Source: an uncultured Gammaproteobacteria bacterium
GTDB taxonomy: Bacteria > Patescibacteriota > Microgenomatia > Daviesbacterales > UBA10151
Assembly (NCBI GenBank): GCA_964504665.1
Contig: CAZDEH010000003.1
Location: forward strand, 1,140 to 65,139
Reading direction: 5' to 3'
Length of the DNA stretch: 64,000 bases
The number at the start of each line of letters is the position of its first letter. Position 1 is the first letter of the stretch. Both the position numbers and the translations under genes were made by a program. The notes beneath the pieces are model-generated. The model searched no databases, had not been told where the DNA came from, and was given only the letters and a program-made list of their open reading frames with translations. Shown here in pieces: positions 43,868-64,000 of the stretch.

Positions 43868-44821
43868 TTATGGAAGCAAACCGACATCTCTGAGGATTTT
43901 AGTGAGTTTTGAATAATCAAACACATTAACTACCCCATCTTGATTCATGTCTGCTTTCAGAGTACCTTGACCTTGACTACCCCAGGCAGAAAGAAGCACA
44001 CTTAAATCCTGCAAGTCTACTTTTGTGTCCTGATTAACATCTCCTTCCAGAGACCCTATTGGAGTAGGGGTTAAGGTAGGAGAAGGCAACACCTCTATCG
44101 TGGGAGTCACAGTTGATGAAGGAGATGCAATCGGCGTTTCCCCCAAAATTTTGATAGTGACTCCTGTTTTGGAAGATAAAATATTGGCATTATCCGAGTT
44201 TCGATAAATTGTGGAAGTATCATTAAAGGAAATAGTAGCCTCCCCAGGAGATTTAGGGGTAAAAATTACATCTGCCATAGCAGAACCGCTTGATTCAGGC
44301 TGTGACTGAAAACCAGGGTTAGGCACACCTCCTACTAAACTAACAGATCCGGTCTCGTTATCAATAGTGTTTTCCACCCAATTACTAATAAACCAATTTT
44401 TGATAAACCCACTTGCTGTGGCTTCTGATCGGAGGTCAATACTTTTAGCCTGAAGAATATTGTTGGGAAATTTTAATTTGGCTACAAATAGATTTGCACT
44501 GTCATTATCTGATTTAACTAAAACAGATACCTTAATTTGGCCTCCCAGGGTAGCTTCTGTAGGACTTGCATTTAAAATAAAGCTAGCACCGTGTGAGGAT
44601 ACCGGGGGCACCTGAGGCTCTTCCTGGGGCTTTGGCTTTGCTTTTAAAAAATATGCTGCACCTAAAATTACTATAAGAAGCAACAATATACCAACTGCCA
44701 GAATCATTTTTTTTGGAATAACAGCACTGGGTTTTTTCTTTATACCAGGATCTATGAGAGTTGTTTGGGGCAGTTGTTGATCCATTAATTTAAGTATAGG
44801 AGGCATGGCGTGGTTTCGCAA
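43868..44821 (-). CDS. membrane-anchored secreted protein with C-terminal dockerin-like repeats
   Basis: GDVNQDTKVDLQDLSVLL ... ADMNQDGVVNVFDYSKL; N-terminal TM. Confidence 0.45.
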   Translation of the reverse strand: MRNHAMPPILKLMDQQLPQTTLIDPGIKKKPSAVIPKKMILAVGILLLLIVILGAAYFLKAKPKPQEEPQVPPVSSHGASFILNASPTEATLGGQIKVSVLVKSDNDSANLFVAKLKFPNNILQAKSIDLRSEATASGFIKNWFISNWVENTIDNETGSVSLVGGVPNPGFQSQPESSGSAMADVIFTPKSPGEATISFNDTSTIYRNSDNANILSSKTGVTIKILGETPIASPSSTVTPTIEVLPSPTLTPTPIGSLEGDVNQDTKVDLQDLSVLLSAWGSQGQGTLKADMNQDGVVNVFDYSKLTKILRDVGLLP

Positions 44822-44912: not shown

Positions 44913-44941
44913 TGACACTGTCTGAAGATGTGTGATATAAA
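44913..44941 (+). promoter_or_regulatory. sigma70-like promoter TTGACA-17-TATAAA with extended -10 TGn
   Basis: -35 at 44913-44918; -10 at 44936-44941. Confidence 0.45.
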
Positions 44942-44951
44942 TTTTACTAGT

Positions 44952-45167
44952 ATGGCAGAGAAAATTTCACTCGAAAATCTCCCGGATTTATTAACAGTCA
45001 AAGAAGTAGCAGAAGTACTGCGTGTTTCTCCACTCACTATAAAAAGGTGGGGTAAAAGAGGAAAACTTCCTGCTATTAGAATCAATTCCAGAGGTGATAG
45101 AAGATATAAGAAAGAAGCTGTTCTTTGGCTCTTAGGAATTACTCAGAAAGTAGCTTCTGTTGTTTAA
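44952..45167 (+). CDS. small MerR/excisionase-type HTH DNA-binding protein
   Basis: LTVKEVAEVLRVSPLTIKRWGKRGKLPAIRINSRGDRRY. Confidence 0.55.
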   Translation: MAEKISLENLPDLLTVKEVAEVLRVSPLTIKRWGKRGKLPAIRINSRGDRRYKKEAVLWLLGITQKVASVV

Positions 45168-53503: not shown

Positions 53504-54642
53504 TATTCCACCTCTATATCTGAAATATTGTAACTGCCATCAGCATAAACGTCAACGGTAGCAAATCTGGGAGCCTCTGTATTCCGTTCTTTGGTTATTG
53601 CTCCAACTGTAACCATATTCATATTACTTGCCATATCAGTGTATGAAGTATATGCATGAATATCACCGGCAAAGATTCCTGCCACACCCGCATTTTTAAA
53701 ATTATTTAGCAGCTCCTTAGCCTGCTCTTTAATTTTAGTATTTTCCAATATGGCTGGATCTGTTTTTCTGGCAGAGCCCGCTTCGCCGAATCGAGACGAG
53801 TCCGCTTCGCCAGTCTTGCGAGGCGAGCCCATGACTTGATCTGAGGTTGGATGAACCAATGGTTCATGTAGAAAGATATAGATTGACTTAGATTGATTAG
53901 TCTGCACCTTATTTAATTCATTTTTTAACCAGTTAAATTGTAAATCGTCTACCCCATTATAATTATCAGAGTTAAAAGTAAGAATAAATCTGACACCGGA
54001 ATCGGAAAAAGCCTGATAAGGCATACCAAATACCTGGCTATAATTATTGACCGCAACACTACCTTTATCCCGAGAGTCCCACAAATCATGATCTCCCGGG
54101 ATGACATAAAAAGGTAAGCCGCTTGTCTCAAAAACCTGCTTGGCATCCTCCAACTCCTTAATTGTTCCCACATCACTAAAATCTCCCAAACCAATCACAA
54201 ACTTTGCTCCACCTGCTTTAGCTTGAGCTAAGGCTTTTTTTAAATCTTCATTGTTGTTATGTGAATCTGCTACAAGGGCAAATTTAAAAAGCGGAGATCC
54301 GCTTTTCTTTGTGGGACGGGAAGTATTGTTATTTTCCGGTGCATCGTTGTTATTCAAGGACAATTTTAGATCTTTAGCAGGACTAAAACTTAAGACACCG
54401 GCAATCATTTTGGTCGTTTCCTCTGAAGTAATAAGCCCAATAATTGCCTGTTTAGGGTTAGCTGGAAACTCATTCACAGCTTTCGTAATAGGATCACCCT
54501 CAAGTATATTCCCTGAAAAATATTTAAAAGCCTGAATCAGAGCTACTCCTAAAATTAAAAATAAAACCAGGGAAATAAACAGCCTCAAGATAGTCAAAGG
54601 CAGTGGTACTCCGTGTCTCCGATTTTCAGACCGATGAAACAT
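53503..54642 (-). CDS. calcineurin-like metallophosphoesterase, membrane-anchored, with an in-frame GC-rich insert
   Basis: ALVADSH, GLGDFSDVG, YVIPGDHDLW, GDIHAY; insert GSPRKTGEADSSRFGEAGSA encoded by 53776-53829. Confidence 0.65.
   Translation of the reverse strand: MFHRSENRRHGVPLPLTILRLFISLVLFLILGVALIQAFKYFSGNILEGDPITKAVNEFPANPKQAIIGLITSEETTKMIAGVLSFSPAKDLKLSLNNNDAPENNNTSRPTKKSGSPLFKFALVADSHNNNEDLKKALAQAKAGGAKFVIGLGDFSDVGTIKELEDAKQVFETSGLPFYVIPGDHDLWDSRDKGSVAVNNYSQVFGMPYQAFSDSGVRFILTFNSDNYNGVDDLQFNWLKNELNKVQTNQSKSIYIFLHEPLVHPTSDQVMGSPRKTGEADSSRFGEAGSARKTDPAILENTKIKEQAKELLNNFKNAGVAGIFAGDIHAYTSYTDMASNMNMVTVGAITKERNTEAPRFATVDVYADGSYNISDIEVE
53776..53829. repeat. GC-rich element family D (cccgcttcgcc ... 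ttgcgaggcgagcc), in-frame in the metallophosphoesterase
   Basis: Shares both termini with 59094-59134. Confidence 0.65.
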
Positions 54643-56294: not shown

Positions 56295-56325
56295 AAATTA
56301 ATCATAACATATATACGATGGGTGG

Positions 56326-57394: not shown

Positions 57395-58041
57395 ACATTA
57401 ACTAACCCCTTGATCTTTTCATAAACTGACCTGGAGACTACTTTTTTAGTTAAGAGATCCTCTATGCCTGAATATGGTCTATTATCAATAATTTTCTGGG
57501 CAGTAACCGGTCCAACACCAGATAATTTATCTAAATCAGCCGGGGTGGCAGTGTTAATATTTATAAGTACTTGCTGGTTTGAAATGGTGTCATTTGACAC
57601 CAACACAGAACTTACCTGTGATGTTTCCCCTGTTGATGGCACATAAATCTTCATTCCATCTACCACCTTTTGGGCTAAATTTATAGTTTTTGATAAATAT
57701 GTCGGGTCTACTGACTCTGTTACTCCTCCGGCTATTTTTAGGGCATCTTCAACCCTAGCATCAAAAGGCAATGAATAAACACCGGGAGTTTTTACTGCAC
57801 CTGAAACATCAACTTTTACTTCTTGTACTTTTTTAACACCGCTGACTTCAGAAGCAGAAACTAAAGGTGGTAATTGTTTTGAGGACTTAATGAAAGTTTT
57901 GGGGATAATCCCGGAAGAAATAATACCACCAATCAGTAGAACAAAACCCACTATTCCCACAATAATTGGCACTTTTAATCTAGCTAGCGAATCATCCAGA
58001 TTACTTTCCAAGTTCATATTTAATATAAACCAAACCTCCAA
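57388..58041 (-). CDS. comEA: ComEA-like helix-hairpin-helix DNA-binding competence protein
   Basis: ININTATPADLDKLSGVGPVTAQKIIDNRPY... Confidence 0.7.
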   Translation of the reverse strand: MEVWFILNMNLESNLDDSLARLKVPIIVGIVGFVLLIGGIISSGIIPKTFIKSSKQLPPLVSASEVSGVKKVQEVKVDVSGAVKTPGVYSLPFDARVEDALKIAGGVTESVDPTYLSKTINLAQKVVDGMKIYVPSTGETSQVSSVLVSNDTISNQQVLININTATPADLDKLSGVGPVTAQKIIDNRPYSGIEDLLTKKVVSRSVYEKIKGLVNVW

Positions 58042-58496
58042 ATAGACCTTTTAATCTTAACTTTTCTCTTATACTGTTCTTTTAACTCTTCCCGGTAACT
58101 TTTAATCCATGCTCTGTAAGCATTAAATAGGTGTACCAAACCCCTAGTTTCCATCTCTTTCTTAATCACTCCTCCTTCATGCGGAAATCTGTGTAACCTT
58201 TGGTGGGGTGAAGAAAAACCATGGGCATAATGACAAAGTTCATGGGCAATTGTATGGTCAACTACCTCCTCTGCAACACTAAGGTCTTTAAACATAGCAG
58301 TAATAGTAATGTATGTTTTACCTGAAGCTGGATCAAGCTTGATTGAACCGAGCCTGAGTTTTGAATAACGACCAAAGCGGATTAAGATTAGGTTCAGTCG
58401 AGGTACATCTTTAAAATAAACTGACCAGAGGAAGTTAAGCCTACCAAACAACCAGGAGTTATCTCGGGTATAAGATGTAGTTGCTAAATTAGGCAT
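58020..58496 (-). CDS. DUF45/YgjP-like HExxH metal-dependent hydrolase
   Basis: TIAHELCHYAHGFSSPHQRLH. Confidence 0.5.
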   Translation of the reverse strand: MPNLATTSYTRDNSWLFGRLNFLWSVYFKDVPRLNLILIRFGRYSKLRLGSIKLDPASGKTYITITAMFKDLSVAEEVVDHTIAHELCHYAHGFSSPHQRLHRFPHEGGVIKKEMETRGLVHLFNAYRAWIKSYREELKEQYKRKVKIKRSIWRFGLY

Positions 58497-58525: not shown

Positions 58526-61150
58526 TTAGTCAACTTCATTAATCAGCCACCAATCAAAAGTAATATCTTTAGATGCATTTTTAGAAGCAGTCACAGTAAA
58601 TTTTTTAGCTTCTTCTTTAGCAGTCACTGCCAACACTGTATCTGTCTCCGTTGTGGGTGTTACCAGAATTCTTGATCTTGTTGAAACTATTAAGTTATCG
58701 ATCTCCACTGATTTTTCACCCAAAGTAATTTTTGCATTACCTGATGTCTTTCCCCCTTTTATTTTAAGTTCAGAAACTTCAGCTGTTTTGGCTTTGACAG
58801 TTCCTGTCTTATCAATAGTAACCATCCCGTTAAAAAAATCTACCAAAGCTGTCAAATCTGATTTTTGAATGAATAGAGTGGGTAAAGCATTGATGGCATT
58901 GCCATCAGTCAGGAAAAGTGTCCCATCTTGAACAATATCACCAGCAGCAATCACAGTACCCACCAGAGTTTCTCCCAAGGATTTTAAAGTTTTGGAAAAT
59001 GTTGCGGTTTCATATGTTAATAAGGAACCTGATAAGGTTGCTTCCATAGGAGGCTCTAGAGTGAGGTTGAGATTGTCTACCGACTGCTGACTTCCCGCTT
59101 CGCCCGTCTTTGACGAGGCTTCGCGAGGCGAGCCGACTTCTGCTAAACCAGCAGAAGGAGTAGCAGAGGAAGAAGCGGATTGTTGTGCTGAAGTACTGGA
59201 CTCCTCGGATGGTGGCAACGACCTGTCCGCCGAAGCCGTGGCGAAGGAAGAAGGAAACTCCTCCGAGGTGAACAGAGTGGCTGAGATGGAAGATTCTAAA
59301 TTATTTAATCTCAAATCTGTATCTTTTAATACTGCTACAATATCAAGAGTGAGGTGATAGCTGCTGCTAACCTCTGTTGCTAACTCCTGGATAGACTTAA
59401 CTAAAACTGGGATCATTCCGATGGTATTTAATGATTTTAACCCTGTTTCACTCTCAGTTGTTACCAGTTTAGGTATAACTTGTTCTACCTCTTGGGCAAT
59501 AAACCCAAGATTTTTAGTAATAGCATCAGATTCTGTTTTCCAGTTATACCAAACAGGCCGAAGAGACATTACAGCATCCAGTCCATAATTTAGATCATCA
59601 ATATTTTTCTTTAAGTTAACATCTGAAGAACAGGAAATTGTTCCTCCTGTAGCCAAAGTACACCCTGTGGTATTCACATCAGTAAATTTAGCTATAGTTG
59701 CTCCTGTGCCTGTGCCTTTTACCTCAAAAGGAGCAGAAGGATTGGTGGTGCCAATTCCTACATTGCCAGTCGAACTGTCGACAGTTAATGAATCACTCCA
59801 CATAGGATTACCTGATGTCCCTATGATCATAGTACTTCCTTGATTACCAGCACTCAGCGCTGAAAATGAAGTAGTTGAGTCAGCAAATAATAAGTCACCA
59901 GCTAAAAAAGAGGATAAACCAGTACCACCATGCTCAGGGCTTAACTCCCCTTGTTTAATAGAGCCTGCATCAACATGACCATCATATGATATAGAAATAC
60001 TATCTTGTATATCAGAATCTATCAAGCAATTATCACAACCACCCCTATCTCTGACAGAAAATAAAGTAGATGTGTCACTAATAACTAAACCATCAACCGC
60101 AATGTCATTACCTCCAATAAGTTTCAAATCTCCACTAAGTCCCCCTAAAGAGCTGACTAAAGCTGGTAATTTTAAACTTATTTTCGGTGTTTGCCCACCG
60201 GAAATAACCACATTATCACCGGCTATTAGACCATAAATAATATTAGGAGCAGTTAATAGTCCCTCCACAATAGTGCTGCCTTTAAGCATAATCTGGTTAA
60301 CAGCATCTGTTGATTCTCCAAGAACCTTGGTATCAGAATTTATTTGTTGACGATTAAAAGTCGAAGATGAAATTTTAACGTTTGTAGATAACTGGCGTAT
60401 TTGATCAGTCATTTCCAAAACTTCATCCATCTCTGTTTGTATACCAGCTACTTTCTGGTTAATAAAATTAGTATTGCTATTAACTTTATCTAACTTATCC
60501 ATAATTTGAAAACCAGTATACAACCCAATAGATACTCCTGCTGACATAATGAAAAGAAAAAGAATGACTGCCAACGAATAATGAATTACGTTTGTTCTGC
60601 TAGATCTATTATTACTATTTTTTGGTTGATCAGGGGAAACAGCTCCGGGAATGTTCATCTCCTCTTGTAGCTTTAAAATTAATTTTTTGGAAAAACGCCT
60701 GGCTCCTCCACTGGCTCTTTGACTGGCAATTAACCCTTTTTTATCCCAGTTCCTAATAGTATCCGGGGAAACCTGAAGTAATCTGGCTGCCTTAGAAACA
60801 GACAAACCGGTAATTAGGGCGTTAACTTGAGTCTTATTTTTAGTATTTAGTTGTTTTTGCATCTCTTCCAATTCAATTAGGTTGTAGCGCCTGGATCCAC
60901 CTTGCGTTCTATCCGGTATCAGCCTTCCTTGTTTTTCCCAATTTCGGAGAGTGTCAGGATTCACTTGTAAAATTTGGGCTGCTTTAGAAATTGGGATGAA
61001 ACTTTTGGCTATCTTTCTCGGCTTACTAGATGGGATACTTACTCTCATCTCAAATAGTCTATTTTGACCTATAATTAAAGAGTTTCCAGCAGCACTTTTT
61101 TCTTCGTGTAGTTCTAGAGTTGGTAATCTTTTAAGTGTTAATTTAGGCAT
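58526..61150 (-). CDS. large membrane-spanning protein: two N-terminal MerR-type HTH domains, one TM, an extracytoplasmic beta-rich region with an S74-like intramolecular-chaperone domain, and a Ser-rich tail
   Basis: VNPDTLRNWEKQGRLIPDRTQGGSRRY and VSPDTIRNWDKKGLIASQRASGGARRF (MerR HTH + wing); TM VIHYSLAVILFLFIMSAGVSIGL; NLKKNIDDLNYGLDAVMSLRPVWYNWK...LGFIAQEVEQVIPKLV resembles the tailspike chaperone (peptidase S74) motif; in-frame family D repeat at 59094-59134. Confidence 0.5.
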   Translation of the reverse strand: MPKLTLKRLPTLELHEEKSAAGNSLIIGQNRLFEMRVSIPSSKPRKIAKSFIPISKAAQILQVNPDTLRNWEKQGRLIPDRTQGGSRRYNLIELEEMQKQLNTKNKTQVNALITGLSVSKAARLLQVSPDTIRNWDKKGLIASQRASGGARRFSKKLILKLQEEMNIPGAVSPDQPKNSNNRSSRTNVIHYSLAVILFLFIMSAGVSIGLYTGFQIMDKLDKVNSNTNFINQKVAGIQTEMDEVLEMTDQIRQLSTNVKISSSTFNRQQINSDTKVLGESTDAVNQIMLKGSTIVEGLLTAPNIIYGLIAGDNVVISGGQTPKISLKLPALVSSLGGLSGDLKLIGGNDIAVDGLVISDTSTLFSVRDRGGCDNCLIDSDIQDSISISYDGHVDAGSIKQGELSPEHGGTGLSSFLAGDLLFADSTTSFSALSAGNQGSTMIIGTSGNPMWSDSLTVDSSTGNVGIGTTNPSAPFEVKGTGTGATIAKFTDVNTTGCTLATGGTISCSSDVNLKKNIDDLNYGLDAVMSLRPVWYNWKTESDAITKNLGFIAQEVEQVIPKLVTTESETGLKSLNTIGMIPVLVKSIQELATEVSSSYHLTLDIVAVLKDTDLRLNNLESSISATLFTSEEFPSSFATASADRSLPPSEESSTSAQQSASSSATPSAGLAEVGSPREASSKTGEAGSQQSVDNLNLTLEPPMEATLSGSLLTYETATFSKTLKSLGETLVGTVIAAGDIVQDGTLFLTDGNAINALPTLFIQKSDLTALVDFFNGMVTIDKTGTVKAKTAEVSELKIKGGKTSGNAKITLGEKSVEIDNLIVSTRSRILVTPTTETDTVLAVTAKEEAKKFTVTASKNASKDITFDWWLINEVD
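59094..59134. repeat. GC-rich element family D, in-frame in the 874-aa protein (encoding GSPREASSKTGEAGS)
   Basis: cccgcttcgcc ... ttcgcgaggcgagcc. Confidence 0.65.
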
Positions 61151-61609
61151 AAAAGTTATGAAAAACTTATGAAAAAGTTAGAAGACTTTTCCTAACTTAA
61201 GTGTTATAAATATCTAATACTTTGTCAAGATATCAAAATGACTTATAAGCGTTAGTTAGTCTTTGTAACAGACATCTTTTTCTTTTTATGTTACTCCCTA
61301 TCAGTAAATTTTATGGCTAATCAGAATTATTTTGATAAAACTATTAAGTTAATTAGTTAGTATCTTCAAGAGATTGTAGTCTTACACTTTGTGTATGATA
61401 ATTTTTGACTTATACTATGGTTTACAGTTAATTTTTTAGTTCAAATTGTTCTAAGCAAACTTTGAAACTAGATGATTAGTAAAAAAATCATTCTGTCAGT
61501 GAATTGGGATTAGCAATTTAAATTATTGATTGCTAAGTTTTTAAACAGGTATTTTAGATTGTTAAATCAACCAAATCGTGTTTTGTCTTTTAATCTAAGC
61601 AAAATAACT

Positions 61610-64000
61610 TTAGATAACAATGTTAAATATTTTACCCGGAACGTAAATTATTTTTTTGATAGAGTTTTCTCTAATATATTTGTCAATTTTTGGTAATTTT
61701 AAGACCATTTCTTCAATGATTTTTTTATTATTTACTATATCTTTTTGTATCAAAATGTTTTCCCGTAGTTTACCGTTTATCTGTATAACCAAAATGGTCT
61801 GTTCATCTTCCAGGTATTTTTTATCAAATTCAGGCCAGGGTTGGTTATGGATAGAATACTTATTCCCCATTATCTCCCACAGTTCTTCAGTAATAAACGG
61901 CGCTATTGGAGATAACATAATCAGCAGCTTTTGAATGGTATCTTTGGAGGCTGTTTTTTGTCTGGATAGAAAGTTTAATAGCTCCATTAGACTTGCCACA
62001 ACAGTATTGTATCGCAGGTTTTCAAAATCATTATCAGTTTTTTCGATAGTTTTGTTCAAAATTCTCTTTTCTTCTTCTGTCGCCTCAATATCTTTATAAT
62101 TTTGTACTAAACCCCACACCCTGTTAAGAAAACGATAGGTTCCATTTAAACCGTCATCCCGGAAATCACCCCCACCAGTAAATGGTCCCATAAACATTAG
62201 ATAGGCTCTGAATACATCGGCTCCCCAATCTTTAATGTATTTATCAGGCACAACTACATTACCTTTAGATTTACTCATTTTAGCTCCGTCTTTAATAATT
62301 AAACCGTGAGCCCTAAATTTTGTGAATGGTTCTTCGAAATCAATAAATCCCAGATCCTTAAAAGCCATGGTGATAAACCGCGAGTAAAGCAAGTGAAGAA
62401 CTGAGTGCTCTGCCCCACCAATATACATATCTACAGGCAGCCATTTCTTAGTTCTACTGTCATCAAAAAATTTGTCATCTAAATCCGTGGTTAAATATCT
62501 AAAAAAATATAAAGCTGAGTCAAAAAAATTATCCGATACATCAGTCTCACGCCTGGCTTTTCCCCCACACTTAGGGCAAGTAGTATTAACAAAATCTGGA
62601 TCTGAAGCTAAAGGCCCTAAACCTGTACCCGTAGGCTTAAAATCTTTAACATAAGGCAACTCTACTGGCAAATCTTTTTCCGGCACGGGCTGGGTTCCAC
62701 ACTTATCGCAGTAAATTATTGGAATTGGTGGACCCCAATACCTTTGCCTGGAAATTAACCAATCACGCAGATGATATTGAATTTTAATTGAGCCCAGATG
62801 ATGCTCTACGAGATAGTTTGTTATCTTCTCTCTCGCTTCCGGGGAATTCATACCATTATACTCTCCGCTATTAACAAGTACTCCTTCACCCTCATAAGCT
62901 TCTTCTGATATCTCAGCTTCACAAGGTGTATCCTTGCGAAGCTGAATAACAGTTTGGATGGGTAAATTATATTTCTTAGCAAACTCAAAATCCCTTTGAT
63001 CGTGTGCCGGAACAGCCATAATTGCGCCTGTTCCATAACCCATCAACACATAATCAGCCACCCACACAGGAATGTCTTTCCCAGTGAGAGGATTTTTAAC
63101 AAATGTACCTGTAAAAATACCTGTTTTTTCCTTATCTCCTTGGCGTTCAATATCAGATTTTTCCTTGGCTGCTTGAACATAATCTGAAACTTTGCCTTTC
63201 TGCTCTTTAGTAACTAGTTGATCTATTTTTGGGTATTCCGGACTAATAACCAAGAAAGTTGCTCCAAAAACAGTATCCGGCCTGGTAGTAAACACTTCTA
63301 ATTCGCCGAATTTTATTAAGGCTCCCTCTGATTTTCCTATCCAATTGCGCTGAGCTGTTTTGACTAATTCCGTCCAGTCTAAGGAATCTATATTTAAAAG
63401 CAGTTTTTCTGCATAATCTGTGATCTTTAGAAACCATTGGTCCACTTCTTTTTGAACCATTGTTCAAGTTCTTTTTTCGTCACCCGAGAAGAACATCTCT
63501 CACACTCTCCGGAAATAACCTGCTCATCAGCGAGTACTGTCAGACATGATGGACACCAATTTACCTCTGCTCTTTTCCGGTAAGCCAATCCCTTTTTATA
63601 TAGCTGAAGAAAAGCCCACTCCGTCCATTTGTAATAGTTTGATTTATATGTATCGACTGTTTTCTGCCAATCAAAAGCATTCCCAATTAATAAAAACTGC
63701 TCATAAAAATGCTTTTCTGTTCTTTTACTCACCTCCATTGGATGCTCATTTATTTTCATTGCATAATTTTCGCCATGAATTCCAAAACCATCCAGGCCAA
63801 TAGGTTCAAATACATCATACCCTTGTAGCCTTTTAAACCTGGAGTAAACATCTGATCCTGTAAAAGCATACATATTACCTACATGCATACCCTCAGCTGA
63901 AGGATAAGGAAACATCATCAGAGAATAATATGGTTTTTTTGATTCATCTAAATCAGGGCTAAATAGACCATCTTCTTTCCACTTTTTTGCCCATTTAGGT
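61610..64000 (-). CDS. leuS: leucyl-tRNA synthetase, split by a frameshift near 63430-63475; N-terminus extends beyond the window
   Basis: FPYPSAEGMHVGN (HIGH), CERCSSRV, then WFLKITDYAEKLL in the second ORF; KMSKS at MSKSKGN; upstream frame remains open to nt 64000. Confidence 0.8.

What the first reader, a model, noticed from the sequence alone, without database searches (positions are those of the whole stretch)
58526..61150. 874-aa protein combining cytoplasmic tandem MerR-type HTH domains, a TM helix and an extracytoplasmic tailspike-like region with an S74-type chaperone motif
Two wing-bearing MerR-like HTHs (…PDT[LI]RNW[ED]K[QK]G…GG[SA]RR[YF]) precede a single TM segment. The C-terminal 650 aa are beta-rich and include the motif typical of auto-cleaving intramolecular chaperone domains of phage tailspikes/endosialidases (LKKNIDDLNYGLDAVMSLRPVWYNWK...IAQEVEQVIP). 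A further Ser-rich ~270 aa follow, containing GC-rich family D repeats. A DNA-binding domain tethered to a surface fibre-like domain is an unusual architecture. It might be a transmembrane one-component regulator or a repurposed phage-derived protein.
Basis: inference. Interest (0 to 1): 0.5.

Follow-up and report, generated by a model that had tools for sequence, protein, structure and literature searches.

The report
Membrane-tethered DNA-binder with phage-fibre ectodomain
This gene encodes a single-pass membrane protein with two BldC-like DNA-binding domains inside the cell and a phage-tail-fibre-like rod with a self-cleaving chaperone module outside, and it belongs to a conserved family of ultra-small (CPR) bacteria, not described in the literature I could search, that probably binds repeats in its own promoter region.

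Summary
ORF 58526-61150 (-) encodes 874 aa. It has two MerR-type winged HTHs (aa 52-99, 116-163), one strong TM helix (188-214; N-side net +19, C-side -32) and a fibre-like ectodomain. The ectodomain carries a canonical Peptidase_S74 domain (Pfam 57 bits; Ser509/Lys514 dyad), a Ser-rich GC-rich linker and a tailspike-like C-terminal beta-sandwich.

It is not a prophage gene or a one-off fusion. It belongs to a Patescibacteria family (194 confirmed genomic relatives, eight or more candidate phyla). The shared plan is HTH(s), TM, conserved "module A", a variable fibre and a C-terminal domain. In 33 of 49 loci the gene diverges from the ATP-synthase operon. S74 is a lineage-specific cassette shared with other CPR surface fibres.

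The HTHs are BldC-like. Family genes carry phased repeats between a TTGACA box and the start codon. The repeat sequence co-varies with the recognition helix: KTLRRW goes with TTGGACA (32/37 loci), and DTLRNW, as here, goes with TTTTTCATAAC x3 at 11-bp spacing (6/8).

The best model is an autoregulating membrane-tethered DNA-binding protein with a trimeric fibre ectodomain. S74 cleavage would detach the C-terminal 366 aa, not the DNA-binding domain as in MYRF. I found no paper describing it.

The parts
58526..61150 (-). Complete CDS, 874 aa: 2x HTH, TM, stalk, module A, S74/ICA, linker, C-terminal domain
   Evidence: ORF list; identical protein P0001 in NCBI on a 72.5-kb contig; 63%-identical full-length orthologue P0002
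60854..60997 (-). Winged HTH 1 (aa 52-99), BldC-like. Recognition helix D66-T-L-R-N70-W71, wing G85-S-R87-R88-Y89
   Evidence: Pfam MerR/MerR_1/HTH_17; NCBIfam HTH_BldC 58 bits, below its 77-bit cut-off; PDB BldC 6AMK/6AMA alignment; AF2 pLDDT 70-79
60662..60805 (-). Winged HTH 2 (aa 116-163). D130-T-I-R-N134-W135, wing G149-A-R151-R152-F153
   Evidence: Pfam; local HMM; AF2 pLDDT 66-85
60509..60589 (-). Single transmembrane helix (aa 188-214), N-in/C-out
   Evidence: Hydropathy maximum 2.37 and flank charges; net charge +19 inside and -32 outside; a TM at the same relative place in 55 family ORFs
60380..60508 (-). Extracellular helical stalk continuing from the TM (aa 215-257), probably a coiled coil
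   Evidence: AF2 models one helix over 187-257 at pLDDT 51-69. The coiled-coil reading is inference
59741..60295 (-). Module A (aa 286-470): LTAPN...RGGCDNCL...GGTGL...GDLLFA...P.W. This is the ectodomain module most widely shared across the family. Its last ~52 aa (59795-59950) are a unit that is repeated many times in giant proteins
   Evidence: tblastn finds it after the HTH/TM in most family loci of all phyla; the unit occurs up to 58x in P0079
59351..59632 (-). Peptidase_S74 / intramolecular chaperone auto-cleavage domain (aa 507-600). Predicted nucleophile Ser509, base Lys514. Together with the GNVGIGTT lead-in (59633-59767) it forms a cassette 60-73% identical to HTH-less CPR surface fibres
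   Evidence: Pfam E 2e-15; PHROGs tail-fibre C-termini; alignment to 6F45 and 7DC3; dyad definition from PMC8326128; cassette identity
59051..59350 (-). Variable Ser/Thr-rich linker (aa 601-700) containing a GC-rich in-frame cassette at 59095-59134
   Evidence: Composition; cassette shared with the gene at 53778-53829; the region is not conserved in orthologues
58529..59050 (-). C-terminal domain conserved in the Daviesbacteria-type members and a few distant relatives (aa 701-874). The last 73 aa (58529-58747) form a six-stranded beta-sandwich resembling tailspike/depolymerase C-terminal domains
   Evidence: Alignments A1 and A4; tblastn distribution; AF2 pLDDT 85-94 for the last 75 aa; Foldseek best hits Pam1 tailspike 7EEA (E 2.5e-3, rmsd 2.0 over 74 columns) and K1 lyase 7W1C; weak Pfam PF24146 in 7/15 members
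61142..61198 (-). Candidate operator array in the leader. One forward copy AAGTTAGGAA (61189-61198), then same-orientation 11-bp-phased copies: TCTTCTAAC (61177-61185), TTTTTCATAAG (61166-61176), TTTTTCATAAC (61155-61165) and TTTTATGCCTAAA (61142-61154, overlapping the start codon)
   Evidence: The 21-mer is unique in the window against 0.02 expected; it is conserved in otherwise unalignable orthologous spacers; it co-varies with the recognition helix; the RNA fold is not significant, z -0.38
61223..61228 (-). Conserved -35-like TTGACA box, 78 nt upstream of the ATG, within conserved TGATATcTTGACAAA
   Evidence: Invariant block in the alignment of three orthologous spacers; also present in L010, L011, L014, L016 and L017

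Best explanation
The protein is a single-pass, N-in membrane protein of a conserved Patescibacteria family. The cytoplasmic part (aa 1-187) carries two tandem BldC-like winged HTHs. These most likely bind, head-to-tail, the 11-bp-phased direct repeats that lie between the promoter and the start codon of its own gene (61142-61198). That would make the protein a membrane-tethered autoregulator, and in relatives probably also a local regulator of the divergent atp operon. The extracellular part (aa 215-874) is built from phage-fibre modules: a helical stalk, module A, a GNVGIGTT lead-in, an S74 intramolecular-chaperone domain and a tailspike-type beta-sandwich. It most likely folds as a trimeric fibre. 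The S74 domain would drive trimer folding and then cut the chain at Ser509 using the Ser509/Lys514 dyad. This would leave HTH-TM-fibre (aa 1-508) in the membrane and detach the C-terminal 366 aa. Trimerisation outside would cluster six HTHs inside, which gives a plausible route for the state of the surface fibre to influence DNA binding. Shown here: the domain content, a topology supported by hydropathy and charge, family membership, synteny, the conserved repeats and their co-variation with the helix. Inferred: DNA binding to those repeats, trimerisation, cleavage, and any signalling.
For: Domains. Topology. Family: 194 tblastn-confirmed genomic relatives across Daviesbacteria, Amesbacteria, Levybacteria, Shapirobacteria, Woesebacteria, Woykebacteria, WWE3 and Saccharibacteria. 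Of these, 55 ORFs have an HTH followed by a TM, and the profile-free search gave 204 representatives at E<=1e-10. BldC binds the direct repeats CAATTCGGACAATTCGGACA through Lys26/Arg30 and a His46-Arg47-Arg48 wing (PMC5859096). Relatives that keep those residues (KTLRRW) carry TT[GA]GACA/TGTC[CT]AA in their leaders in 32/37 loci, at a density 40x that of the flanking DNA. DTLRNW proteins, including this one, never carry that motif (0/8), and 6/8 have at least two T[TC]C[AC]TAA units at 11-bp spacing. In the window the 21-mer repeat is unique against 0.02 expected. It lies in the only conserved block of the spacer. The leader has no significant RNA fold. The S74 dyad is also intact in P0002 and P0080. 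The ectodomain modules match tail fibres and tailspikes.
Against: There is no experimental evidence of any kind. A generic direct-repeat score did not separate family leaders from control genes (30% against 23%), so the case rests on the specific motif. The co-variation has few independent contrasts, because the DTLRNW group is mostly Daviesbacteria. In this protein the BldC base-contact residues are replaced (Lys26->Asp, Arg30->Asn, His46->Ser/Ala), so binding specificity cannot be transferred from BldC. In KTLRRW relatives the forward and reverse arms could also form an RNA hairpin over the start codon. The monomer AF2 model of the ectodomain is poor (pLDDT<50 for aa 252-419 and 454-799), so the trimeric fibre is an inference from homology. 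No coupling mechanism between ectodomain and HTHs is demonstrated.
Confidence: 0.5

Rival explanations
1. The protein is a structural surface fibre or adhesin. The HTHs are not gene regulators but a cytoplasmic anchor. They would tie the fibre base to the nucleoid, or hold a chromosomal locus at the membrane as RacA does, or bind a protein partner as the RodZ HTH binds MreB.
For: The ectodomain is 75% of the protein and is built from phage-fibre modules shared with HTH-less CPR surface proteins. HTH copy number varies from 1 to about 10 in relatives, which looks more like avidity than classical regulation. MerR-like HTHs with architectural roles are known (RacA and Xis, mentioned in PMC5859096).
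Against: Motif clusters are concentrated at the gene's own leader and co-vary with the recognition helix. A non-specific or protein-binding anchor would not predict that. A sequence-specific tether at that site is, however, hard to tell apart from autoregulation by computation alone.
Confidence: 0.2
2. The conserved leader repeats are not protein operators. They would be RNA or translation-initiation elements (a start-codon-occluding hairpin, a leader peptide, or an S1/ribosome loading site). The HTHs would then have other, unseen targets.
For: In KTLRRW relatives the forward and reverse arms can pair, and the reverse arm contains an ATG (ATGTCCAAGTTT) that either starts the protein or opens a mini-ORF MSKF*. 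The repeats lie downstream of the -35/-10-like boxes and so are transcribed. There is no obvious Shine-Dalgarno sequence before the ATG.
Against: In Daviesbacteria the copies are direct repeats, so they cannot form such a hairpin. The window leader folds no better than shuffles (z -0.38). The motif resembles the BldC operator and changes together with the protein's base-contact residues. Extra paired sites occur far from any start codon, towards atpB. There is no Rfam hit.
Confidence: 0.15
3. The protein is part of the DNA-uptake apparatus. It would work with the SprT-like protein, ComEA and ComEC encoded immediately downstream, for example as a surface fibre that captures DNA or as a cytoplasmic DNA handler.
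For: The order fibre gene, 158-aa HExxH ORF, ComEA, ComEC on one strand is conserved in the window and in L001-L006, L010 and L012-L015.
Against: The linkage is confined to Daviesbacteria. In L016-L018 the LeuRS-SprT-ComEA-ComEC block sits on the opposite strand without the fibre gene. Outside Daviesbacteria, com genes lie within 8 kb in only a few loci (L026, L036, L038), while the atp operon is the recurrent neighbour (33/49). MerR HTHs bind duplex DNA, not the incoming single strand (established knowledge).
Confidence: 0.07
4. A MYRF-like mechanism: S74-driven trimerisation and self-cleavage release the DNA-binding domain from the membrane so it can act as a soluble transcription factor.
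For: It has the same three ingredients as MYRF/MrfA: a DNA-binding domain, an ICA domain with a Ser/Lys dyad, and a TM helix.
Against: The domain order is different. Here the TM (188-214) lies between the HTHs and S74 (507-600), so cleavage at Ser509 leaves the HTHs attached to the TM. MYRF has DBD-ICA-TM with the ICA on the cytosolic side (PMC8326128). Most family members lack S74 altogether.
Confidence: 0.03
5. A prophage or phage-remnant tail-fibre gene (or an assembly or gene-calling fusion of an excisionase-like gene with a tail-fibre gene).
For: There are PHROGs hits to tail fibres and to excisionases, and S74 is typical of phage fibres.
Against: The continuous ORF is conserved in many independent assemblies. 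It is flanked by housekeeping genes in conserved synteny (LeuRS, ComEA/EC, ArgRS; the atp operon in relatives). There are no phage genes nearby. IMG/VR holds only short HTH-only matches and no full-length relative.
Confidence: 0.03

Closest known systems
BldC (Streptomyces; PDB 6AMA/6AMK), founder of the minimal MerR-like wHTH family
   Same: It has a wHTH of the MerR fold without the MerR dimerisation helix or effector domain. The conserved pieces are T-x-x-W in the recognition helix and the G-G-x-R-R-Y wing. BldC binds phased direct repeats head-to-tail (PMC5859096). Relatives of this protein have BldC-like AAGTTGGACA repeats in their leaders.
   Different: BldC is a 68-aa soluble protein. 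Here two copies are fused in tandem and tethered to the membrane, with a 660-aa ectodomain. The NCBIfam BldC model scores 58 bits, below its 77-bit cut-off. The base-contact residues Lys26/Arg30 are Asp/Asn here, and the candidate site (TTTTTCATAAC, 11-bp period) differs from AATTxxxxC (9 bp).
MYRF / Dictyostelium MrfA (membrane-bound transcription factors with an ICA domain)
   Same: A DNA-binding domain, a Peptidase_S74/ICA domain with a Ser-Lys(+5) dyad and one TM helix are combined in a single polypeptide, and the ICA is internal rather than C-terminal.
   Different: The order is DBD-TM-ICA here against DBD-ICA-TM in MYRF, so the ICA is on the opposite side of the membrane and cannot release the DBD. 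The DBD is MerR/BldC-type, not Ndt80-type. This is bacterial. S74 is optional in this family.
Phage tail fibres and tailspikes with a C-terminal intramolecular chaperone (endosialidase K1F/endoNF, phage S16 gp37, T5 pb1) and tailspike C-terminal beta-sandwiches (Pam1 TSP, K1 lyase)
   Same: The S74 domain and catalytic dyad are the same, there are GNVGIGTT-type fibre repeats, and the C-terminal sandwich fold is similar.
   Different: This is a chromosomal cellular gene with a cytoplasmic DNA-binding head and a membrane anchor instead of a virion-attachment domain. S74 is followed by 274 more residues.
ToxR / CadC / TcpP-type membrane-bound one-component regulators
   Same: The topology matches: an N-terminal cytoplasmic DNA-binding domain, a single TM, and an extracytoplasmic domain. 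They bind DNA while membrane-bound (established knowledge).
   Different: Those use OmpR-type wHTHs and small periplasmic sensor domains. Here the HTH is MerR/BldC-type and duplicated, and the outer part is a long fibre with an autoproteolytic module.
HTH-less 'tail fiber domain-containing' surface proteins of CPR bacteria (e.g. P0017-P0028)
   Same: The S74 cassette is 60-73% identical. S74 is usually internal, and some (P0017, P0019, P0025) end in the same beta-sandwich.
   Different: They start with a signal or anchor peptide rather than HTH domains.

Membership tests
Classical MerR-family transcriptional regulators | N-terminal winged HTH of the MerR type | tested here: met
   PF00376 scores 82.9 bits against a 28.2 cut-off, in two copies
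Classical MerR-family transcriptional regulators | Long antiparallel coiled-coil dimerisation helix and C-terminal effector-binding domain after the HTH | tested here: not met
   MerR_1 matches only profile positions 2-47 of 69. All NCBIfam full-length MerR equivalogs score far below their cut-offs and match only the first ~50 positions. HTH1 is followed by HTH2, and HTH2 by the TM
Classical MerR-family transcriptional regulators | Palindromic operator inside an over-long (19-20 bp) -35/-10 spacer | tested here: not met
   The candidate sites are direct repeats lying 30-80 nt downstream of the TTGACA box
BldC family (minimal MerR-like wHTH) | wHTH only, with no dimerisation or effector domain, and sequence membership by the NCBIfam model | tested here: inconclusive
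   The domain limits fit, and BldC is the only PDB sequence hit (E 7e-4). However, NF033787 scores 58.3 bits, below its 77-bit cut-off
BldC family (minimal MerR-like wHTH) | Base-contact residues Lys26 and Arg30 and wing residues His46-Arg47-Arg48 | tested here: not met
   The window protein has Asp66/Asn70 and Asp130/Asn134. The wing is S-R-R or A-R-R, so only the two Arg are kept. Single-HTH relatives do keep Lys and Arg
BldC family (minimal MerR-like wHTH) | Cooperative head-to-tail binding to phased direct repeats | not testable with these tools
   Candidate repeats exist, but binding needs EMSA, footprinting or a structure
Peptidase_S74 / intramolecular chaperone auto-cleavage (ICA) domain | Sequence match above the Pfam gathering threshold | tested here: met
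   57.3 bits against 22, covering profile positions 1-57 of 58
Peptidase_S74 / intramolecular chaperone auto-cleavage (ICA) domain | Catalytic Ser and Lys five residues downstream (endoNF S911/K916; MYRF S587/K592) | tested here: met
   S509-D-V-N-L-K514 aligns to SSDRRIK of 6F45 and to the mutated site of 7DC3. The dyad definition is from PMC8326128
Peptidase_S74 / intramolecular chaperone auto-cleavage (ICA) domain | C-terminal helices forming a trimeric coiled coil; trimer-dependent self-cleavage | not testable with these tools
   AF2 places helices at 570-576 and 579-593, but at pLDDT<50 in a monomer model. Cleavage needs expression of wild type against S509A/K514A
MYRF-type membrane-bound transcription factors | [quoted passage not shown] | tested here: not met
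   The order here is HTH (52-163), TM (188-214), ICA (507-600). The MYRF order is from PMC8326128
MYRF-type membrane-bound transcription factors | Ndt80-type DNA-binding domain | tested here: not met
   There is no Ndt80 hit; the DBDs are MerR-type
ToxR-like membrane-bound one-component regulators | N-terminal cytoplasmic DBD, single TM, extracytoplasmic domain | tested here: met
   Hydropathy and charge asymmetry. This is a prediction only
ToxR-like membrane-bound one-component regulators | OmpR/PhoB-type winged HTH | tested here: not met
   There is no Trans_reg_C hit; the HTHs are MerR-type
Phage tail fibre / prophage structural gene | Encoded in a phage genome or prophage, next to other virion genes | tested here: not met
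   The neighbours are housekeeping genes in conserved synteny. There is no full-length relative in IMG/VR

The most novel reading that the evidence does not exclude
The family is a new class of bacterial contact-sensing, membrane-tethered transcription factor. A phage-fibre-like trimeric ectodomain engages a partner (host cell, cell wall or phage) on the surface of an episymbiotic CPR bacterium. Through clustering, or through S74/G2-type autoproteolysis, it changes how the cytoplasmic BldC-like HTHs occupy phased repeats. That would control its own gene and the adjacent F1Fo ATP-synthase operon, directly coupling surface attachment to energy metabolism.
Probability: 0.2. Interest if true: 0.85.

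Novelty: new variant of a known kind. Interest (0 to 1): 0.6.

Why it matters
CPR/Patescibacteria are mostly uncultured episymbionts with tiny genomes and very few recognisable regulators or host-contact sensors. This family is conserved across many of their lineages. It sits next to the ATP-synthase operon. It physically joins a sequence-specific DNA-binding head to a long, fast-evolving surface fibre assembled from phage modules. If the head really reads the repeats in its own and the atp regulatory region, this would be a one-protein path from the cell surface to transcription in organisms where none is known. It would also be a bacterial counterpart, with inverted topology, to the MYRF combination of a DNA-binding domain with a phage ICA domain. 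Finally, it provides a natural series (1, 2 and about 10 HTHs; KTLRRW against DTLRNW helices with matching site changes) for studying how BldC-type proteins recognise DNA.

Tried and rejected
1. A generic direct-repeat score on the 70 nt upstream of family genes against 558 control genes showed no enrichment (30% against 23% at score >=8). Only the specific motifs are informative.
2. The search for homologous proteins with the C-terminal 175 aa returned nothing, not even the protein itself. I treat this as a tool miss and draw no conclusion from it.
3. The full-length AF2 monomer model had mean pLDDT 43, so I ran no fold search on it. The C-terminal model was confident only for the last 75 aa, and its Foldseek hits are marginal, with none at E<=1e-3.
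4. PADLOC gave only an HTH-level hit to mad1, with no evidence for a defence system.
5. A functional link to ComEA/ComEC is rejected as a general feature, because it is specific to Daviesbacteria and broken in L016-L018.
6. The downstream 158-aa HExxH ORF as a dedicated protease for this protein is not supported. It has only a weak SprT-like hit (E 0.009, below cut-off), and it travels with LeuRS/ComEA rather than with the fibre gene in L016-L018.
7. A loose regex for Daviesbacteria-type repeat pairs gave 10 hits in the window against 3.5 expected. It is too unspecific to define further targets.
8. Identifying the alternative middle module of the orthologues as Peptidase_G2 rests on 2/15 weak hits (best E 7e-5). 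I keep it only as a lead.
9. Literature searches for this architecture found nothing. Subscription-only papers were not searched.


Full report
**1. What is there**

The ORF at 58526-61150 (minus strand, ATG start, 874 aa) is real. An identical protein exists in NCBI on a 72.5-kb contig (P0001). The window is AT-rich (GC about 0.36). Its closest relatives are Candidatus Daviesbacteria, a lineage of the Microgenomates/Patescibacteria, or CPR.

Pfam finds two MerR-type HTHs (82.9 bits against a 28.2 cut-off). It also finds Peptidase_S74 at aa 509-563 (57.3 bits against 22). A local HMM places the HTHs at aa 52-99 and 116-163.

There is exactly one hydrophobic segment, aa 188-214 (Kyte-Doolittle maximum 2.37). 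Residues 1-187 have net charge +19 and residues 215-874 have -32. All four cysteines are in the C-terminal part. With no N-terminal signal sequence, this supports an N-in/C-out topology. That topology is a prediction and has not been tested experimentally.

The S74 match is canonical. It aligns to the C-terminal chaperone of phage S16 gp37 (6F45) and to the MYRF ICA domain (7DC3). S509-D-V-N-L-K514 falls on the Ser/Lys(+5) catalytic dyad, which is defined by endoNF S911/K916 and MYRF S587/K592 (PMC8326128).

After S74 comes a ~100-aa Ser/Thr-rich linker of raised GC content. After that comes a conserved 174-aa domain.

The one correction is that the last ~270 aa are a linker plus a conserved domain, not one Ser-rich tail.

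**2. It is a member of a large family, not a one-off**

A word-indexed protein search found a 63%-identical full-length orthologue (P0002). It also found about fifteen ~900-aa Daviesbacteria proteins with two MerR HTHs but no S74. More distant single-HTH proteins came from Amesbacteria, Shapirobacteria and Saccharimonadales.

The alignment of these proteins shows a modular plan:
- a conserved N-terminus with HTH1, HTH2 and the TM helix;
- a helical stalk;
- a variable fibre part;
- a middle module;
- a coiled or Ser-rich linker, usually with an LTPPDILLAT motif;
- a well-conserved C-terminal domain.

A scan of one genome per GTDB species gave 194 tblastn-confirmed relatives. The best 80 come from Daviesbacteria, Amesbacteria, Levybacteria, Shapirobacteria, Woesebacteria, Woykebacteria, WWE3, Saccharibacteria and unclassified Patescibacteria. 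Several MAG titles say "Gammaproteobacteria", but the gene content is CPR-like.

In 55 of these loci the HTH is followed by a TM helix 85-240 residues from the start. The ORFs run from about 700 to more than 3,400 aa, and many are cut by contig ends.

"Module A" (aa 286-470 here) follows the TM in most family loci of all phyla. Its last ~52 residues (GGTG...GDLLYA...P.W) are a unit repeated up to 58 times in giant proteins.

An exhaustive HMMER search with aa 40-470 gave 1,518 representatives at E<=1e-3, 204 at E<=1e-10 and 25 at E<=1e-30.

HTH number varies across the family. Most members have one, Daviesbacteria and a few others have two, and P0081 has about ten.

**3. S74 is a swappable cassette**

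Among the genomic loci, S74 occurs only in the window protein and in L010. A third family member, P0080, has a divergent S74 (ISDERLK).

In most Daviesbacteria orthologues the same slot holds another module (ADLAE.Y...PVALAGRVPVKV...GDYLTSSS.PGVAMKA). It gives weak Peptidase_G2 hits in 2 of 15 members, best E 7e-5. Peptidase_G2 is the other known phage-appendage auto-chaperone. P0005 and P0083 lack any middle module.

The cassette here (aa ~462-603) is 60-73% identical to HTH-less CPR "tail fiber domain-containing" proteins. That is far more than the rest of the protein is to anything. Those proteins begin with a signal or anchor peptide. Their S74 is usually internal too, and some of them (P0017, P0019, P0025) end in the same C-terminal sandwich.

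The pattern points to module shuffling among CPR surface fibres.

**4. Structure**

The full-length AF2 monomer model is poor (mean pLDDT 43). It is usable only for the two HTHs, for one helix spanning 187-257 (TM plus stalk), and for the last ~75 residues.

A focused model of aa 700-874 was again confident only for the last 75 residues. These form a six-stranded beta-sandwich with pLDDT 85-94.

Foldseek against the PDB gives marginal but coherent hits to C-terminal domains of tailspikes and depolymerases:
- cyanophage Pam1 tailspike 7EEA (E 2.5e-3, rmsd 2.0 Å over 74 columns);
- K64-1 depolymerase;
- K1 lyase 7W1C.

None reaches E<=1e-3. The hits agree with sub-threshold PF24146 matches in 7 of 15 family members.

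Poor monomer confidence is expected for intertwined trimeric fibres. Trimerisation is therefore inferred from homology, not shown.

**5. Genomic context**

In Daviesbacteria the order on one strand is:

LeuRS, ~460-540-bp spacer, this gene, 140-158-aa HExxH ORF, ComEA, ComEC, ArgRS, metallophosphatase, NDK.

This tempted a link to DNA uptake, but the link fails on two counts:
- In L016-L018 the LeuRS-SprT-ComEA-ComEC block lies on the opposite strand without the fibre gene.
- Outside Daviesbacteria, com genes lie within 8 kb in only a few loci (L026, L036, L038).

The recurrent neighbour is the F1Fo ATP-synthase operon. In 33 of 49 family loci with at least 3 kb of upstream sequence, atpB is transcribed divergently, usually 110-900 bp away. 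In Daviesbacteria, LeuRS has come to lie between the two.

The gene is thus a vertically inherited chromosomal gene. A scan of IMG/VR returned only 15 short HTH-only matches and no full-length relative. PADLOC gave only an HTH-level hit.

**6. The HTHs and their probable target**

The only PDB sequence hit is BldC (6AMK/6AMA). NCBIfam's BldC and HspR models are the best HTH hits but fall below their cut-offs.

BldC is a minimal MerR-like wHTH. It binds phased direct repeats head-to-tail, with an optimal site CAATTCGGACAATTCGGACA. It reads bases through Lys26 and Arg30 and the minor groove through His46-Arg47-Arg48 (PMC5859096).

I aligned the spacers upstream of three Daviesbacteria orthologues. 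They are otherwise unalignable, and only two blocks are conserved:
- TGATATaTTGACAAA, a -35-like box, at 61223-61228 here;
- a tandem 11-bp repeat running into the start codon.

In the window the repeat copies are TCTTCTAAC, TTTTTCATAAG, TTTTTCATAAC and TTTTATGCCTAAA (61142-61185). A forward copy, AAGTTAGGAA, precedes them at 61189-61198.

The 21-mer is unique in the 64-kb window against 0.02 expected. The same phased units, typically at -23, -12 and +1, occur in eight of the nine Daviesbacteria-type leaders examined and in L010.

Distant single-HTH relatives show the same layout with a different, BldC-like sequence. An example is AGTTGGACAAAGTTGGACAATCATG in Shapirobacteria.

I ran four tests on these leaders:
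- Generic direct-repeat score: it did not distinguish family leaders from 558 control genes, so this test is negative.
- Specific motif TT[GA]GACA/TGTC[CT]AA: it is 40-fold denser in the -110..+20 leaders (10.2 per kb) than in about 520 kb of flanks (0.25 per kb). In 20 of 49 loci there is a forward/reverse pair 18-21 bp apart.
- Co-variation with the recognition helix. Proteins with KTLRRW keep BldC Lys26/Arg30, and 32 of 37 have the GGACA-type motif while none has the other type. Proteins with DTLRNW, this one included, never have the GGACA type (0 of 8), and 6 of 8 have at least two T[TC]C[AC]TAA units.
- Location of other paired sites. Leaving aside two sites that sit at the real starts of L007 and L032, where my start call was wrong, the remaining paired GGACA-type sites are these: four loci have a site in the spacer towards atpB (L028, L035, L041, L053), one has a site inside the atp operon (L030), and one (L042) has a site 657 nt upstream of the gene with an unidentified neighbour.

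The window leader shows no significant RNA structure (z -0.38). There is no Rfam match in it.

Together these results support sequence-specific binding of the HTHs to the gene's own leader. In relatives they also point to binding in the atp control region.

Three caveats apply. The DTLRNW group is mostly one lineage, so independent contrasts are few. In KTLRRW relatives the two arms could also form an RNA hairpin over the start codon. Nothing here is experimental.

**7. Mechanism proposed**

Shown by computation: the domain content, the predicted topology, family membership, synteny, the conserved repeats and their co-variation with the helix.

Inferred:
- (a) The tandem HTHs bind the 11-bp-phased repeats head-to-tail and autoregulate the gene. 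The sites lie between the promoter-like box and the ATG, a position suited to repression.
- (b) The ectodomain forms a trimeric fibre whose folding is driven by the S74 domain.
- (c) S74 then cuts at Ser509. This leaves aa 1-508 in the membrane and detaches aa 509-874, which comprises the ICA, the linker and the tailspike-like sandwich.
- (d) Trimerisation outside clusters six HTHs inside, a possible means of coupling fibre state to DNA occupancy.

The TM helix lies between the HTHs and S74. A MYRF-type release of the DNA-binding domain is therefore excluded by topology.

I put about 0.5 on this composite model. The architecture and topology part is near 0.9, and operator binding and cleavage are about 0.6 each.

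**8. Comparison with known systems, and novelty**

The parts are all known: the BldC-like wHTH, the S74 ICA domain and the tailspike C-terminal sandwich. So are the two relevant concepts: membrane-bound one-component regulators such as ToxR and CadC, and MYRF as a DNA-binding domain combined with an ICA and a TM helix.

The following appear in no paper I could find (subscription-only literature was not searched):
- the combination and its domain order;
- conservation of the family across Patescibacteria;
- the adjacency to the atp operon;
- the matching operator-like repeats.

Public annotation calls these proteins "MerR family DNA-binding transcriptional regulator" or "hypothetical protein".

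I rate the finding a new variant of a known kind, with interest 0.6.

Noticed in passing
window 59095-59134 and 53778-53829 (both minus strand): A short GC-rich cassette (GGCTCGCCTCGC...GGCGAAGCGG) lies in-frame in two unrelated genes, encoding GSPRE..GEAGS and GSPRKTGEA..GEAGSARKT. In the metallophosphatase it is a 26-aa insertion absent from the orthologues in L001 and L004. It looks like a small element that inserts in-frame, comparable in idea to Rickettsia palindromic elements.
   Followed up: partly
window 61610-63460 and 63427-63918 (minus strand): LeuRS is split into two overlapping ORFs in different frames, whereas orthologues are a single 805-811-aa ORF. This is either a frameshift or an assembly error.
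   Followed up: no
window 44928-45167 (+): A standalone 79-aa BldC/excisionase-like HTH protein (SPLTIKRW...GDRRY) with no TM. It is the only other MerR-type HTH in the window.
   Followed up: partly
window ~33011, 43201, 51091, 51621, 56311: These are further 80-nt islands of 59-62% GC in a ~36% GC genome. The one at 56311 fills the ArgRS-ComEC spacer. None matches Rfam at gathering thresholds.
   Followed up: no
L008, L009, L022, L031, L033, L067 (leaders of single-HTH relatives): The reverse arm of the motif reads ATGTCCAAGTTT. In some genes it is the true start (MSKF-LP...). In many others it is followed by a stop (mini-ORF MSKF*/MSNF*), and the main ORF starts 15-25 nt later, after a conserved CTGCCCA. 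It could be a leader peptide or a DNA-site constraint on the N-terminus.
   Followed up: partly
L028 7564, L035 7595, L041 7616, L053 7614, L030 4570: These are second paired TTGGACA/TGTCCAA sites. They lie in the divergent spacer close to atpB or inside the atp operon, which suggests the ATP-synthase operon is a target of the family's HTH. This cannot be tested in the window, where the atp operon lies beyond the end.
   Followed up: partly
P0081 (623 aa), P0046/L007, P0017: Some relatives have unusual variants. P0081 has about ten tandem MerR-like HTHs before a C-terminal TM. Fibre genes of relatives carry inteins (PF14890 in P0046, and P0017 begins with an intein C-terminal ...GGIVAHNT junction).
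   Followed up: no
window 43868-44821 (-): A 317-aa ORF has an N-terminal TM helix and C-terminal dockerin-like repeats (GDVNQDTKVDLQDL...DMNQDGVVNVFDY). It is another candidate surface-assembly protein.
   Followed up: no
window 58020-58496 (-): A 158-aa ORF has an HExxH motif (HELCHYAHG). It has only a sub-threshold SprT-like hit, yet it is conserved immediately upstream of ComEA in all Daviesbacteria loci examined. It is an uncharacterised small metalloprotease-like partner of the com genes.
   Followed up: partly
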